From: Candidatus Microgenomatus sp.
Lineage (GTDB): Bacteria; Patescibacteriota; Microgenomatia; UBA8517
NCBI GenBank assembly: GCA_020724585.1
Contig: DYGS01000001.1
Location: 674,535 to 738,534, forward strand
Reading direction: 5' to 3'
Length of the DNA: 64,000 nt
The translations under genes and the position numbers were made by a program. The notes under the pieces are model-generated. The model made no database searches and had not been told where the DNA came from. It saw nothing but the letters and a program-made list of their open reading frames with translations. Below, one piece after another: positions 59,675 through 62,199 of the stretch; the first letter of the stretch is position 1, and each line of letters opens with the position of its first letter.

Positions 59675-59723
59675 ATTAAATAGTATTATGCTGTATGCCG
59701 TATGCTGTATGCAACCATAAAGC

Positions 59724-60857
59724 TTACAGCTTATGGCTTAATACAAATTCAAGCATTTCTTTCTTGAATCTTTCTTTACTAAATTTCTTGGCTTGATTTA
59801 TGCAGTCTTCTTGCCTAAATTTCATCTTTTCAAATCTTTTTACAGCCTCATTTAAACTTTTAATGGTTAAGTTATCAAAAAAGACGCCCGTTATATTTTC
59901 TTGGATAGTCTCCAAATAACCACCACCTCTGTAAGCAATGGCAGGTTTACCCCCCGCTTGAACTTCAATCGCGGTCATGCCTGAATCTTCATCTTTTTGA
60001 GCCAAAATAAATGCTTTACAAGACCTCAGTAGTTCAAATTTTTTCTTTTCAGAAACTTTACCTAAAAATTCGATGTTTTCGTTAGATATGCTTCTCAAAT
60101 ATCTCTCCTGAATTCCTGAACCAAAAATCTTGAGATTCTTTTTATTTTTGTTAAAGGCTTTTATTATCAAATCAAAATTCTTAGCTGCAACCATTCGTCC
60201 ACCGGTTAGATAAAAATTATTATTATCTTTGACACCATTATCTTCTAGAATTCCATCAACATTTATAGGTGGGTAAATTACTTTGTAATCAAACCTCTTA
60301 TAAAACTTTTCCACTCGTTTTCCGACTTCTTTTGAATTAACAATAAAATAATCAACTTTTTGAGCCTGATTAAAGTCATAAACTCTCATAAAGTGATTAA
60401 CTATTGCTCCATAAATATTTACTAAAAATCCGTACCATTTTTTTTGCCAAATAACAGAGGTTTCATAGCCATATAAATATCTTGGTGGTGTATGAAGATA
60501 ACATATTTCAATCGGGCGACTGCCTCGCTTGAATCCTTTTGTTACTGCCCAACTGGCGCTTGAAATAACTAAATCGTATTTTGATAGGTCAAGACTATTC
60601 CATATCAGTGGTATTAAAAATCTAAACAATGAAATTGTTCTGTGAGCAAGCGGTACAAAATTAAACCATGAAGATATAATCCGAGCATCTTTTAATTTTG
60701 GTAAAAATCCAGAAACTCTCTCCTTTTTAAATACTGATACATAAATTGGAGCCTTGGGAAACAATTCGTGTAGTGCCACCAAAACTTCTTCCGCCCCCCC
60801 CCAATCAATAAGATAATCATGTACTAGTGCAACTTTTAGGCGGGCTATATGCTTCAT
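59724..60857 (-). CDS. GT4-family glycosyltransferase
   Basis: 'EDSGMTAIEVQAGGKPAIA' E-x7-E motif. Confidence 0.8.
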   Translation of the reverse strand: MKHIARLKVALVHDYLIDWGGAEEVLVALHELFPKAPIYVSVFKKERVSGFLPKLKDARIISSWFNFVPLAHRTISLFRFLIPLIWNSLDLSKYDLVISSASWAVTKGFKRGSRPIEICYLHTPPRYLYGYETSVIWQKKWYGFLVNIYGAIVNHFMRVYDFNQAQKVDYFIVNSKEVGKRVEKFYKRFDYKVIYPPINVDGILEDNGVKDNNNFYLTGGRMVAAKNFDLIIKAFNKNKKNLKIFGSGIQERYLRSISNENIEFLGKVSEKKKFELLRSCKAFILAQKDEDSGMTAIEVQAGGKPAIAYRGGGYLETIQENITGVFFDNLTIKSLNEAVKRFEKMKFRQEDCINQAKKFSKERFKKEMLEFVLSHKL

Positions 60858-60860
60858 GGT

Positions 60861-61265
60861 TTATGCTTTATGGTTAAAACTTCTGACACTTTTAATTATT
60901 CCTGTAATCAATTTATGAACGACTACTGTCTGTTCCCAAATTTCGTTAAATTTGGCTACATTTATATAATTAACATCTCGAGCTATATATAATTGATTTT
61001 GTATTTCAGTCAATGAACCTTTAGCCATTAAATAAAATTGTATCTTTTCTTTTACTCCTTGTCTTGAAAATCCTTCTGCAATATTACTTGTTATGGAAAC
61101 CGCCGCTCTACACATTTGATCAACTAGGGCAAATTTCTCTTGAGTAGGAAATGATTTAGTAATTTGGTAAATCTGCAAAACCAGTTTGTGACCTTCTTTC
61201 CATACATACAAATCAGAAAAAGTAGTTATTCTTTGTTTAGTTTGTTCTTGCATATTTGTTTCCAT
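60861..61265 (-). CDS. Four-helix-bundle protein (TIGR02436, '23S rRNA intervening-sequence protein' family)
   Basis: 'ITSNIAEGFSRQ...KIQFYLMAKGSLTEIQNQLYIARDVNYI' is the family signature. Start set at the internal ATG because the upstream codons are formed by a family-D repeat. Confidence 0.75.
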   Translation of the reverse strand: METNMQEQTKQRITTFSDLYVWKEGHKLVLQIYQITKSFPTQEKFALVDQMCRAAVSITSNIAEGFSRQGVKEKIQFYLMAKGSLTEIQNQLYIARDVNYINVAKFNEIWEQTVVVHKLITGIIKSVRSFNHKA

Positions 61266-61290
61266 ACAGCATATGGCATATAGCATAAAG

Positions 61291-62199
61291 CTAGAAAAGT
61301 GATCCTTGGTTTTCTTCCTCTATTCTCTTTCCTAATTTCTCAATCCTAGTTTTAAGAGTTTTAAAACCATAATTTTCAAAAAGTTTAATTACTTCAGGTG
61401 AAACTACATCCCAATTGTTTGAGTCGTTTATATCAAAATTAATTGGAACATCTTTTACTATTGTAGCAACCTTGTATGATAAGTAAGCAGATTCTCTACC
61501 ATCGATTAGTTTTTGTTTTACTTTTTCTTGAATCTCATCTAAATTTTCATATATCCCGTCAAGAGTTTTATATTTCAAAAGTAAACTTGATGCAGTTTTA
61601 GGCCCTATTCCTGCAATACCAAAATAATTATCAGATGGATCACCAACTAGAGCTTTATAATCTGGAATCTGAAAGGGGCTAACCCCCATTCTTTCAAATG
61701 TTTCTTTTTCTGTAAAAAATTTGCCATTAGAAAGTCCAACAACAGGCATATAAAGTTTTATATTTTTCTTGTCATCGACTAACTGCAATATATCCCTATC
61801 CCCAGTCACTATAACGGTGCTATATGCTTTGTGCTCTATGCTTGATGCTATTGTACCTATAATGTCGTCGGCTTCGTAACCAGATTTTGAATAAACTGGA
61901 ATATTTACAGATTTTAAAAAGTCACGAGCTTTTTGAAACTGAGGAATTAAGTCTGATGGAGTTTCAGGTCTTTGAGATTGATATGTCGGTAGAAGTTCAT
62001 TTCTAAATGTTTTTTCTTTTTCGTCAAAACAAAAAACAATGTGTGTTGGTTTTAAATTTTCTACAATGTTTATGAGCATTGAGACTAGACCATAAAGGGC
62101 GTTTATTGGTTCTCCAGATTTTGAAGTTAATGGTGGAAGTGCGTGGAATGCACGATACATAATTGCATTCCCATCAAATATAACCAGTTTACTTTGCAT
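61291..62199 (-). CDS. 5'-3' exonuclease (Pol I N-terminal/FEN-like)
   Basis: 'LVIFDGNAIMYRAFHA', 'IVFCFD', 'GIGPKTA'. Confidence 0.85.
   Translation of the reverse strand: MQSKLVIFDGNAIMYRAFHALPPLTSKSGEPINALYGLVSMLINIVENLKPTHIVFCFDEKEKTFRNELLPTYQSQRPETPSDLIPQFQKARDFLKSVNIPVYSKSGYEADDIIGTIASSIEHKAYSTVIVTGDRDILQLVDDKKNIKLYMPVVGLSNGKFFTEKETFERMGVSPFQIPDYKALVGDPSDNYFGIAGIGPKTASSLLLKYKTLDGIYENLDEIQEKVKQKLIDGRESAYLSYKVATIVKDVPINFDINDSNNWDVVSPEVIKLFENYGFKTLKTRIEKLGKRIEEENQGSLF

What the first reader, a model, noticed from the sequence alone, without database searches (positions are those of the whole stretch)
59686..61850. Family-D (RTATGCT)n tracts sit exactly at four consecutive gene junctions and once in frame in the exonuclease gene
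'tatgctgtatgccgtatgctgtatgc' lies at 59686-59712, between mutM and the GT4 gene. 'gctatatgcttcatggtttatgctttatgg' lies at 60841-60870, on the GT4 start. 'catacagcatatggcatatagcataaagc' lies at 61257-61285, on the start of the four-helix-bundle gene. 'gctatatgctttgtgctctatgcttgatgc' lies at 61819-61848, in frame in the 5'-3' exonuclease ('EHKAYST'). Repeats at every junction of this four-gene block resemble REP/BIME-like elements. They may act as terminators, RNA-stability elements or recombination sites. They also make the annotated start codons of two of these genes doubtful. The gene they bracket (60861-61265) belongs to the family first found encoded within Leptospira 23S intervening sequences, and its position suggests it may be a repeat-bounded cargo gene.
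Basis: partly seen in the sequence, partly recalled or inferred. Interest (0 to 1): 0.55.

Follow-up and report, generated by a model that had tools for sequence, protein, structure and literature searches.

The report
Heptamer-armed cassette carrying the IVS-protein gene

Summary
All four tracts are real and non-random, but they occupy three gene junctions, not four, and two coordinates are 3-6 nt off.

What the four tracts are:
- **61263-61291 and 60844-60875:** mutually inverted heptamer arrays. They bracket a PF05635 gene (60861-61253) and pair into a ~24-bp stem.
- **59683-59740:** a gene-less hairpin of the same unit.
- **61817-61851:** a single arm, in frame, in a variable loop of the 5'-3' exonuclease.

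Relatives keep the order ftsH-VTT-exo-GT4-mutM. The cassette lies at exo|GT4 in some, at GT4|mutM in one, and is absent with clean junctions in others. It is therefore dispensable, movable cargo rather than a conserved regulator.

The same design holds across phyla. It appears in 18-19 of 23 flanks per side in one sample and in 29 of 39 cassettes in a second sample. Hosts include Patescibacteria, Cyanobacteria, Bacteroidota, Azospirillum and Xanthomonadaceae, where the gene sits between accB and accC with GGGAATC arms. The published Coxiella 23S IVS shows it too. Arms co-vary and are conserved while synonymous sites are saturated.

The window also holds gene-less 7/8-mer arrays at 16S/23S helix tips and in frame in RecF, TrxR and Pth.

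Best reading: an IVS-type selfish cassette and its gene-less derivatives. How it moves is unknown.

The parts
61263..61291 (-). 5' arm of the cassette. On the gene strand it reads GCTTTAT GCTATAT GCCATAT GCTGTAT GG (4 heptamers). It starts directly after the exonuclease stop codon TAG (61291-61293).
   Evidence: It pairs with the 3' arm in both the MFE and the centroid fold. It is 32/33 and 28/33 identical to the orthologous arms in L012 and L013, while 4-fold sites are 41-48% identical.
60861..61253 (-). Cargo gene: a 23S_rRNA_IVP / four-helix-bundle protein of 130 aa. Alternative upstream ATGs lie at 61265 and 61286, the latter inside the array.
   Evidence: PF05635 E 2.8e-36. TIGR02436 E 2.4e-34. 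PDB 2GSC E 9e-18. dN/dS 0.04-0.07 against orthologues. The start was set from in-frame stops in L012 and L013.
60844..60875 (-). 3' arm. On the gene strand it reads CATAAAG CATAAAC CATGAAG CATATAG C. It contains the last four IVP codons, the IVP stop (60861-60863), and the GT4 start codon (60855-60857) with GT4's first codons.
   Evidence: It is 30/32 and 29/31 identical to L012 and L013. GT4 N-terminus comparison.
59683..59740 (-). Gene-less hairpin of the same unit at the GT4|mutM junction. Its arms are 59687-59712 and 59715-59740. The arm at 59715-59740 encodes the last codons and the stop of GT4.
   Evidence: Fold -22.5 kcal/mol, z = -3.9, 0 of 200 shuffles as stable. L010 carries a complete IVP cassette at this same junction, after the same ...EFV codon.
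61817..61851 (-). Single-arm family-D tract in frame in the 5'-3' exonuclease (aa 117-128, IASSIEHKAYST), in a length-variable loop.
   Evidence: Relatives carry other heptamer families at this loop: AGTACNN in L001, L009 and L011; ATAGCNA in L004; CGTAACC in L010. L002, L003 and L005 carry none. The tract does not fold (z = -1.1).
40255..40320 (-). Family-D mini-hairpin in frame in a P-type ATPase (aa ~597-612, [14 protein letters not shown]).
29915..30012 (-). Gene-less AGTAC-family heptamer hairpin inserted at the tip of 16S helix 10 (99-nt insertion).
   Evidence: Rfam alignment. Fold z = -4.5.
30119..30205 (-). Second copy of the AGTAC-family hairpin, at the tip of 16S helix 6 (94-nt insertion).
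   Evidence: Fold z = -3.4.
21657..21780 (-). 8-mer-array hairpin (CAAAAWTC ... GAWTTTTG) inserted in 23S at model position 583, the helix-25 IVS site.
55364..55393 (-). 27-nt in-frame insertion (9 aa) of the 8-mer family in RecF, absent from all 8 relatives.
37309..37358 (-). (AGTACNN)5 in frame in thioredoxin reductase (STKYKVLSTKYS), an 8-aa loop insertion relative to PDB 2WHD.
48626..48657 (-). TAGTGCC-family tract in frame in peptidyl-tRNA hydrolase, a 3-4 aa insertion relative to PDB 2LGJ. A second, 8-mer tract lies at 48889-48920.

Best explanation
The tracts belong to an intervening-sequence (IVS)-type selfish cassette and to gene-less copies of its arms.

**Architecture (shown).** The full unit is a 5' array of about four heptamers, a short spacer, the PF05635 (IVP/S23p) ORF, and the reverse-complement array.

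**Pairing (shown by folding and by arm covariation).** On one strand the two arrays pair into a stem of about 24-28 bp. The stem is built of 6-bp segments, and the variable base of each heptamer forms a 1x1 mismatch.

**Processing and tolerated sites (inferred).** By analogy with rRNA IVSs, this stem is taken to be an RNase III substrate in the transcript. That would explain why the unit survives where it is found: at rRNA helix tips and exactly between a stop codon and the next start codon inside operons.

**Codon donation.** Because 7 = 1 mod 3, an array offers its ATG and TAA/TAG triplets in all three frames (this follows from the arithmetic). At this locus the arms donate the last codons and the stop of the upstream gene, and the start of the downstream gene (shown).

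**Derivatives.** Gene-less hairpins and single arms of the same unit families are derivatives. They spread to other permissive sites, including surface loops of proteins. Selection keeps only in-frame, stop-free copies.

**Turnover (inferred).** Once in place, arrays turn over by slippage or conversion. Orthologous sites therefore keep the 7-nt period but change unit.

**Open points.** How new copies are made is not shown. What the strongly conserved protein does is also unknown.
For: **Local anatomy**
- Searches give the arrays and their orientation.
- The bracket stem appears in both the MFE and the centroid fold.
- The solo hairpin folds with z = -3.9.

**Presence, absence and relocation in syntenic relatives**
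- Searches show the cassette at exo|GT4, at GT4|mutM, or absent.

**Generality**
- A lag-7 score of at least 16/21 occurs in 18/23 upstream and 19/23 downstream IVP flanks. The control gene ends give 3/158 and 6/158.
- An independent IMG/VR sample gives 29/39 cassettes.
- Flanks read directly in Nostoc, Trichormus, Riemerella, Picosynechococcus, Azospirillum, Stanieria and Calothrix show inverted arrays; Pseudanabaena shows arrays in direct orientation.
- The 2GSC orthologues lie between accB and accC with GGGAATC arms.

**Constraint on the arms and the protein**
- Cognate arms match at 20.0/24, against 14.9 +/- 1.8 for non-cognate pairs.
- Arms are 85-97% identical between orthologues, while 4-fold sites are 41-48% identical.
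- The protein is under purifying selection, dN/dS 0.04-0.07.

**Gene-less derivatives**
- rRNA helix-tip hairpins.
- A clean 27-nt insertion in RecF.
- Different unit families at the same exonuclease loop.
- Loop insertions in TrxR and Pth.

**Literature**
- In the Coxiella 23S IVS, a 28-bp terminal stem encloses the S23p ORF. Three to four tandem heptamers precede the ATG, and RNase III cuts at the first repeat (PMC4990558).
- 23S_rRNA_IVP ORFs occur in CPR 16S and 23S insertions (PMC11270868).
Against: - No recombinase, transposase or reverse transcriptase lies nearby, and none was seen among the window ORFs tested. No target-site duplication was seen. Mobility is therefore inferred only from comparison.
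- Pairing at the RNA level is not separated from pairing at the DNA level. G.U mismatches number 43 against 31 A.C, which is not significant.
- One cassette (L026) has direct rather than inverted arrays. About a quarter of the IMG/VR cassettes show weak or no arrays.
- Single-arm tracts inside coding sequences cannot act as stems, so they need a separate copying route.
- The exonuclease tract could be an old AGTAC-type array that drifted or was converted, rather than a new insertion.
- In Coxiella the S23p protein seems not to be made.
Confidence: 0.68

Rival explanations
1. The tracts are ordinary microsatellites. In this reading, heptamer arrays arise locally by polymerase slippage at many sites, and their nearness to the IVP gene is incidental.
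For: - Copy number varies between Coxiella strains.
- Orthologous sites keep the period but change unit, as in concerted evolution. This holds for the exonuclease loop and for IVP flanks in the window against L004.
- Heptamer simple repeats are known to be over-represented in bacteria (PMC4692102).
Against: - The same unit families recur at unlinked sites: AGTAC at 5 or more, the 8-mer at 7, and D at 5.
- The downstream array is the reverse complement of the upstream one across unrelated units.
- The association with PF05635 genes is about 20-fold above control gene ends and holds across phyla.
- Arms are conserved while synonymous sites are saturated.
Confidence: 0.1
2. The arrays are cis-acting binding sites for a post-transcriptional or DNA-binding regulator. 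That regulator may be the IVP pentamer itself, with one 5-nt core bound per subunit in a TRAP-like manner. On this view their job is regulation of the adjacent genes rather than selfish spread.
For: - Each heptamer has a 5-nt conserved core plus 1-2 variable bases.
- Most arrays read here have about 4-5 units. The closest solved relative, 2GSC, has 5 chains in the entry and is described as a homopentameric toroid.
- Arrays usually end a few nucleotides before a start codon.
- MacGregor 2015 proposed regulator binding for TAACTGA repeats.
- The protein is strongly conserved.
- In the window, solo D-type arrays cluster around the D-flanked IVP gene.
Against: - No binding data exist.
- Relatives do without the arrays at the same genes.
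- Arrays also lie inside rRNA and coding sequences, where a regulatory role is hard to see.
- In L004, L009 and L010 the solo arrays near the IVP gene have other units.
Confidence: 0.15
3. The tracts are REP/BIME-like extragenic palindromes that act as terminators or mRNA-stability elements and are moved by a RAYT transposase.
For: - The tracts are short, imperfectly palindromic and repeated, and three of them lie at gene junctions.
- Junctions are enriched: 7/15 against 0.21 expected, p = 0.02.
Against: - No terminator-like site falls on any tract.
- Eight tracts are in coding-sequence interiors and six are in rRNA.
- There are many unit families rather than one consensus.
- The structure is tandem heptamers.
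- No RAYT/IS200-like gene was found among the window ORFs examined.
- The consistent partner gene is PF05635.
Confidence: 0.04
4. The tracts are chance periodicity or a by-product of codon usage in an AT-rich genome.
For: Some weak lag-7 hits are plain coding sequence conserved in relatives, for example mutM 59248-59280, which matches L010 2513-2543.
Against: - Shuffles give 0.35 tracts against 13 observed.
- At the stricter threshold only periods 7 and 8 are enriched; the other periods from 4 to 12 give 0-1 tract.
- The pattern count is 26 against 9.2, with 0 of 100 shuffles reaching it.
- The hairpins have z-scores of -3.4 to -4.5.
Confidence: 0.01

Closest known systems
rRNA intervening sequences (IVS) that carry an S23p/IVP ORF (Coxiella burnetii helix 45; Leptospira; Brucella)
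   Same: - The same protein family (PF05635) lies in the loop.
- Terminal inverted repeats form a stem of about 28 bp.
- Tandem heptamers lie directly upstream of the ORF, and their copy number varies.
- The ORF is in the sense orientation of the host transcript.
- The element is regarded as selfish (PMC4990558).
- The window's own 16S and 23S carry gene-less hairpins of this type at classic IVS helices.
   Different: - This copy is not in rRNA. It sits between two protein genes of an operon-like block, and its arms overlap their stop and start codons.
- The protein here is under strong purifying selection, whereas the Coxiella ORF is decaying.
- Excision by RNase III is untested here.
Bacterial heptamer repeat families: cyanobacterial STRR (Mazel 1990, from my own knowledge), Xanthomonas GGGAATC / Nostoc GGGGAYT (PMC4692102), Beggiatoaceae/cyanobacterial/Bacteroidetes TAACTGA (PMC4679880)
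   Same: - Tandem heptamers of 2 to more than 10 units, mostly intergenic, often just upstream of start codons.
- Convergent inverted pairs are frequent in Xanthomonas (70 pairs).
- Function is unknown.
- The Xanthomonas GGGAATC family forms the arms of the IVP cassette between accB and accC.
- Nostoc and Trichormus IVP genes are flanked by CAGGAGT/CAGAATT arrays.
   Different: - Term searches of the two papers examined found no mention of S23 or four-helix-bundle genes.
- In the window the arrays also lie in rRNA helices and in frame inside conserved proteins.
Rickettsia palindromic elements (RPE; Ogata et al. 2000, from my own knowledge)
   Same: Short selfish repeats inserted in frame into conserved protein genes and into RNA genes. 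They are tolerated in surface loops and are lineage-specific.
   Different: - RPEs are 100-150 bp palindromic units with a family consensus. They are not 21-35-nt tandem heptamer or octamer arrays.
- RPEs have no associated cargo gene.
REP/BIME and REPIN-RAYT systems
   Same: Short, imperfectly palindromic, repeated and junction-enriched.
   Different: - No RAYT gene was found.
- The tracts are not restricted to extragenic DNA.
- The internal structure is tandemly periodic.
- There are many unrelated unit sequences.
DGR accessory protein Avd (bAvd)
   Same: A homologous four-helix-bundle fold and family clan (PF22296 hit, E 8e-7).
   Different: - No reverse transcriptase or TR/VR was found.
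- NCBIfam DivGenRetAVD scores 26 bits against a cutoff of 80.
- Heptamer arms are not a described DGR feature.

Membership tests
PF05635 / TIGR02436 (23S rRNA IVS protein, four-helix-bundle protein) | The profile match exceeds the curated cutoff. | tested here: met
   PF05635 scores 124 bits against a cutoff of 33.8. TIGR02436 scores 118 bits against a cutoff of 24.
PF05635 / TIGR02436 (23S rRNA IVS protein, four-helix-bundle protein) | Similarity to a solved pentameric four-helix-bundle member. | tested here: met
   2GSC (XCC0516, 5 chains), E 9e-18 over residues 14-124.
rRNA intervening sequence (IVS) element | Inserted at the tip of an rRNA helix. | tested here: not met
   The IVP cassette of the finding lies between the exonuclease and GT4 genes. 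The feature is met only by the gene-less hairpins in 16S h6/h10 and 23S H25.
rRNA intervening sequence (IVS) element | Terminal inverted repeats form a long stem that encloses the ORF. | tested here: met
   A stem of about 24 bp appears in both the MFE and the centroid fold. Arms co-vary across loci.
rRNA intervening sequence (IVS) element | Tandem heptamers lie directly upstream of the S23p ORF, as in Coxiella. | tested here: met
   Four heptamers end 9 nt before the ATG at 61253. For Coxiella see PMC4990558.
rRNA intervening sequence (IVS) element | Excised from the transcript by RNase III. | not testable with these tools
   This needs an RNase III assay or RNA end mapping.
REP/BIME (RAYT-associated) | Confined to extragenic DNA. 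| tested here: not met
   Eight tracts lie in coding-sequence interiors and six in rRNA.
REP/BIME (RAYT-associated) | A single conserved palindromic consensus, with a RAYT transposase in the genome. | tested here: inconclusive
   Several unrelated unit families exist. No RAYT was found among the window ORFs scanned, but only 64 kb of a genome of roughly 745 kb (contig size) was seen.
Intrinsic terminator | A GC-rich stem followed by a U-run. | tested here: not met
   No site falls on any tract.
Heptamer SSR / STRR-type arrays | Tandem head-to-tail 7-nt units, three or more copies. | tested here: met
   TRF finds period 7 with 3.7-4.6 copies at all four tracts.
RPE-like in-frame selfish insertions | The insertion is present in a conserved protein and absent from orthologues, with the frame kept. 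| tested here: met
   RecF carries +27 nt against 8 relatives. The exonuclease loop is variable. TrxR has +8 aa and Pth +3-4 aa relative to solved structures.
RPE-like in-frame selfish insertions | A palindromic unit of 100-150 bp with a family consensus. | tested here: not met
   The tracts are 21-50 nt tandem arrays. The in-CDS copies are single arms that do not fold.
Diversity-generating retroelement (Avd) | An adjacent reverse transcriptase and a TR/VR pair, with the Avd equivalog score reached. | tested here: not met
   DivGenRetAVD scores 26 bits against a cutoff of 80. The neighbours are exo, GT4 and mutM. No RT was found in the ORFs scanned.

The most novel reading that the evidence does not exclude
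PF05635 genes with their inverted heptamer or octamer arms form one pan-bacterial class of autonomous mini-element. Its pentameric protein recognises the periodic arms, one core per subunit, and promotes the copying of the arms in trans. The copies include gene-less hairpins and single arms, and they land in rRNA helices, operon junctions and protein loops. If this is right, the long-unexplained heptamer repeat families would be footprints of this one system. Those families are cyanobacterial STRR, Xanthomonas GGGAATC, Beggiatoaceae TAACTGA and the stems of rRNA IVSs.
Probability: 0.25. Interest if true: 0.88.

Novelty: new variant of a known kind. Interest (0 to 1): 0.68.

Why it matters
**Unexplained for decades**
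- rRNA intervening sequences and the S23p/IVP protein family have had no explanation since about 1990. The family has thousands of members, solved structures and no known function.
- Tandem heptamer repeats in cyanobacteria, Xanthomonas and giant sulfur bacteria are equally unexplained.

**What this locus shows**
- The two puzzles are parts of one architecture. That architecture exists outside rRNA, inside essential operons (accBC, cmr, cas, and here exo-GT4-mutM).
- Its arms can live on their own in rRNA and inside proteins of a reduced-genome Patescibacterium.

**Questions it makes testable**
- Does IVP bind its arms?
- Does RNase III cut the stem?

**Practical consequences**
- Start and stop codons next to these arrays are array-derived, so automatic annotation can misplace them.
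- Short array-encoded peptides in conserved proteins are recent insertions, not lineage signatures.
- The repeats probably break metagenome assemblies. Many IVP homologues sit on contigs of about 1 kb.

Tried and rejected
- **Terminator or promoter role:** the scan found nothing on the tracts.
- **REP/RAYT and DGR readings:** no RAYT, RT or TR/VR was found among the neighbours or in 27 window ORFs scanned against Pfam. The Avd equivalog score is far below its cutoff.
- **Strain-level copy-number variation of the heptamers:** three other samples carry the locus, but all are 100% identical. Nothing was learned from them.
- **Exact look-up of the 134-aa protein:** it is not on record. The 141-aa form was found.
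- **Close relatives in IMG/VR with the single protein:** none were found. The alignment-based scan did work.
- **RNA-level against DNA-level pairing:** tested by G.U against A.C mismatches in 46 cassettes, 43 against 31. This is not decisive.
- **Neighbour orientation from raw ORFs in 59 loci:** about 50/50, and unreliable. The impression from the annotated or homology-verified loci is that most cassettes are co-directional with their neighbours (read, not counted formally). I make no general claim.
- **Whole-cassette fold z-score:** -1.2, not significant, because the ORF dominates. Only the terminal stem is informative.
- **Elhai et al. 2008** (small mobile repeats within heptamer arrays): the paper could not be read in the library.
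- **False positive:** the weak lag-7 hit in mutM (59248-59280) is plain conserved coding sequence.
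Full report
**1. The observation**

All four quoted strings are in the window.
- Tract 1 is at 59687-59712.
- Tract 2 is at 60844-60873.
- Tract 3 is at 61263-61291.
- Tract 4 is at 61819-61848, as stated.

Tandem Repeats Finder calls period 7 with 3.7-4.6 copies at each tract. 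The pattern RTATGCTNTATGC with up to 2 mismatches gives 26 hits against 9.2 +/- 3.2 in shuffles, and 0 of 100 shuffles reached 26. Half of the hits lie in 59686-61848.

The genes, all on the minus strand, are mutM (58823-59674), a GT4 glycosyltransferase (59724-60857), a PF05635 '23S rRNA intervening sequence protein' gene, and a 5'-3' exonuclease (61291-62199). The tracts therefore sit at three junctions and once in frame in the exonuclease, encoding SSIEHKAYST. The title says four junctions, which is one too many.

**2.

- Tract 1 is followed by its own imperfect reverse complement at 59715-59740. Together they fold as a hairpin of -22.5 kcal/mol, z = -3.9, with 0 of 200 shuffles as stable.
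- Tracts 2 and 3 are inverted relative to each other and bracket the IVP gene. When the whole cassette RNA is folded, the two arrays pair in both the MFE and the centroid structure. The stem has about 24 bp, made of 6-bp segments, and the variable base of each heptamer forms a 1x1 mismatch.
- The exonuclease tract is a single arm and does not fold.
- No terminator-like site coincides with any tract.

**3. The window is full of such tracts**

Autocorrelation finds 13 period-7 and 8 period-8 tracts, against 0.35 and 0.15 in shuffles. At the stricter threshold, periods 7 and 8 give 8 and 4 tracts, and the other periods from 4 to 12 give 0-1.

Six tracts lie inside rRNA genes.
- Two near-identical AGTAC hairpins form 94-nt and 99-nt insertions at the tips of 16S helices 6 and 10.
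- An 8-mer hairpin sits at the helix-25 site of 23S, and the 5' third of 23S has further insertions of 57 and 142 nt at two other positions.

Eight tracts lie in frame inside conserved proteins.
- RecF has a clean 27-nt (9-aa) insertion that is absent from all eight relatives.
- Thioredoxin reductase has an 8-aa loop insertion relative to 2WHD.
- Peptidyl-tRNA hydrolase has 3-4 extra residues.

A fifth D-type site, a mini-hairpin, lies in frame in a P-type ATPase at 40255-40320. Junctions are only modestly enriched (7/15 against 0.21 expected, p = 0.02). rRNA is enriched more clearly (6/21 against 0.08, p = 0.006).

**4. Related genomes**

Eleven Microgenomates/Woesebacteria-type loci, 58-84% identical in the exonuclease, keep the order ftsH-VTT-exo-GT4-mutM-hyp-recF. 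The IVP gene is variable.
- It lies at exo|GT4 in the window and in L004, L012 and L013. In L020 it also follows the exonuclease directly.
- It lies at GT4|mutM in L010. That is the junction where the window has the gene-less hairpin, and the insertion follows the same ...EFV codon.
- It is absent in L001 and L008, where the junctions are tight and repeat-free. L007 also lacks it, with a clean exo|GT4 junction and only a short 44-nt insert at GT4|mutM.

It is what a dispensable, movable element would show.

In every relative that has the gene, an upstream heptamer array and a downstream inverted array flank it, but the unit differs. Examples are TAGNATG in L004 and L010 and GCGTANA for a second paralogue in L009.

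At the exonuclease loop, relatives carry different families or none.
- AGTACNN in L001, L009 and L011.
- ATAGCNA in L004.
- CGTAACC in L010.
- No tract in L002, L003 and L005.

Tract load is lineage-specific. The window has 21 tracts in 64 kb, whereas five relatives have none in 14-21 kb each.

**5. Generality**

I read the flanks of 23 IVP genes. They comprise the window, three genome loci, eleven metagenome loci at 31-88% identity, and eight plasmid genes. The plasmid hosts are Nostoc, Trichormus, Riemerella, Pseudanabaena, Picosynechococcus, Azospirillum, Stanieria and Calothrix.
- A lag-7 score of at least 16/21 occurs in 18/23 upstream and 19/23 downstream flanks. The 158 control gene ends give 3 and 6. 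Two further cassettes have period-8 arrays.
- The downstream array is the reverse complement of its own upstream array: 20.0 of 24 positions match, against 14.9 +/- 1.8 for non-cognate pairs. Of 22 cassettes, 17 exceed the non-cognate 95th percentile. One cassette (Pseudanabaena, L026) has direct arrays.
- An independent set of 39 non-redundant homologues on IMG/VR contigs shows the same signal. Lag 7 averages 15.9/15.5 against about 9 for other lags, and 29 of 39 pass on at least one side.
- Orthologues of the crystallised XCC0516 (PDB 2GSC) lie between accB and accC in Xanthomonas and Lysobacter. They are flanked by (GGGAATC)n and (GATTCCC)n.
- In cyanobacterial plasmids the gene sits between cas6 and cas4 and between cmr2 and cmr3.

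**6. Constraint**

- IVP orthologues have dN/dS of 0.04-0.07 at dS of about 1.7-2.8, so the protein is functional.
- Over the same distance the arms are 85-97% identical, while 4-fold sites are 41-48% identical.
- Across 46 cassettes, 86% of arm positions are Watson-Crick. G.U mismatches do not significantly exceed A.C (43 against 31), so RNA-level and DNA-level pairing cannot be told apart.
- The 5' arm is G-rich and the 3' arm C-rich: 406 G:C against 112 C:G.

**7. Gene ends**

- The exonuclease stop codon TAG abuts the 5' arm.
- The last four IVP codons and the IVP stop lie in the 3' arm.
- The GT4 ATG (60855-60857) and the codons that follow it (MKHIA...) are array sequence. Relatives without the cassette start MKIALV... 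or MKNKNLKVALV..., and no other start codon is available in the window.
- The last GT4 codons and its stop lie in the hairpin arm at 59715-59740.
- Because 7 = 1 mod 3, three or more heptamers present their ATG and TAA/TAG triplets in all three frames. The arms can therefore terminate the gene in front and start the gene behind, whatever the phase.
- The conserved IVP start is 61253 (MQEQ...). L012 and L013 have an in-frame stop just upstream. The ATGs at 61265 and 61286 are probably not used.

**8. What is known**

- Warrier et al. 2016 (PMC4990558) describe the Coxiella 23S IVS. It is a 428-nt selfish element in helix 45, and a 28-bp terminal stem encloses the S23p ORF. Three tandem heptamers (GACAGAT) plus a degenerate fourth precede the ATG, and their number varies between strains. 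RNase III cuts at the first repeat.
- A 2024 survey found 23S_rRNA_IVP ORFs in CPR 16S and 23S insertions, and short ORF-less insertions at classic IVS sites (PMC11270868).
- Heptamer repeat families without a known function are described in Xanthomonas and Nostoc. The Xanthomonas family is GGGAATC and includes 70 convergent pairs (PMC4692102).
- TAACTGA repeats are described in Beggiatoaceae, Cyanobacteria and Bacteroidetes (PMC4679880).
- Term searches of those two papers found no mention of S23 or four-helix-bundle genes. My searches found no paper that states the general association. The library is incomplete, and Elhai 2008 could not be read, so I cannot claim priority.

**9. Interpretation**

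The finding is an IVS-type cassette outside rRNA, together with a gene-less hairpin and a single in-frame arm of the same unit.
- Shown: the architecture, its generality, arm covariation and conservation, presence/absence and relocation among relatives, and recent in-frame insertion of arrays.
- Inferred: pairing in the transcript and RNase III processing; spread of gene-less arms by templated copying or conversion; unit turnover by slippage.
- Unknown: the agent of mobility and the role of the protein.

A TRAP-like model is the most novel reading not excluded. In it, the pentamer reads the periodic arms.

**10. Verdict**

- The 'repeat-bounded cargo' idea is right.
- The REP/terminator idea is not supported.

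The locus itself is a new variant of a known kind (IVS/S23p elements). The cross-phylum link between PF05635 genes and heptamer arrays, and the in-frame arrays in Patescibacterial proteins, make it more interesting than a routine repeat.

Noticed in passing
window 17222-30280: The rRNA genes are spread out and interleaved with protein genes. The order on the minus strand is: 16S (28697-30280), an ORF at 27867-28361, a TraG/VirD4-like ATPase (25492-27618, plus strand), tRNA-Ile, an ORF at 23842-24681, tRNA-Ala, 23S (19484-22564), two ORFs (18731-19351 and 17857-18312), and 5S (17222-17358, 137 nt for a 120-nt model).
   Followed up: partly
window 22661-22830: The spacer between the 5' end of 23S and tRNA-Ala holds two copies of a 28-nt unit, each a small hairpin (CCACAAGC...GCTTGTGG). 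After them comes another AGTAC-family heptamer hairpin (22756-22830).
   Followed up: partly
window 55099-55130; L009 14974-15009: The last ~11 codons of RecF are array sequence in the window, (CAAATGCTAAATTT)2. In L009 they are a different array, (GAATTAY)n. In both, the protein length is unchanged relative to relatives. Arrays therefore seem to overwrite gene ends as well as insert.
   Followed up: partly
L080-L085 (Xanthomonas campestris, X. sacchari, Lysobacter): A PF05635 gene, the orthologue of PDB 2GSC, sits inside the essential accB-accC operon. It is flanked by GGGAATC / GATTCCC arrays, the 'G-quadruplex-forming' repeat family of Rehm et al. 2015.
   Followed up: yes
L026 (Pseudanabaena plasmid), L027 (Picosynechococcus plasmid): IVP cassettes are inserted inside CRISPR-Cas operons, between cas6 and cas4 and between cmr2 and cmr3. 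L026 has unusually long arrays (13 and 10 units) in direct rather than inverted orientation.
   Followed up: partly
46 cassettes: There is a strong strand asymmetry. The 5' arm on the IVP sense strand is G-rich and the 3' arm C-rich (G:C 406 against C:G 112). Many 5' arms contain GGAG/AGGA-like motifs, which are possibly Shine-Dalgarno-like.
   Followed up: no
one search hit list: Many close IVP homologues sit on contigs of about 0.5-2 kb. This suggests that these cassettes or arrays break metagenome assemblies.
   Followed up: no
window 5972-10522: A 1516-aa ORF has no Pfam match. A neighbouring 902-aa ORF (65-2773) has only a Laminin_G_3 domain. Both are probably large surface proteins typical of Patescibacteria.
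   Followed up: no
L007 5457-5505: At the GT4|mutM junction, L007 has a 44-nt insert with a short palindrome (TTAAGTATTATGC/GCATACTTAA). It may be a decayed remnant of a D-like hairpin.
   Followed up: no
L039, L049, L030 upstream spacers: Some cassettes have a 40-50-nt spacer between the 5' array and the ATG. The spacer carries a recurring motif (...ATGCGTAAYTTTGYG(C)T-ATG). This may mark a subfamily-specific leader.
   Followed up: no
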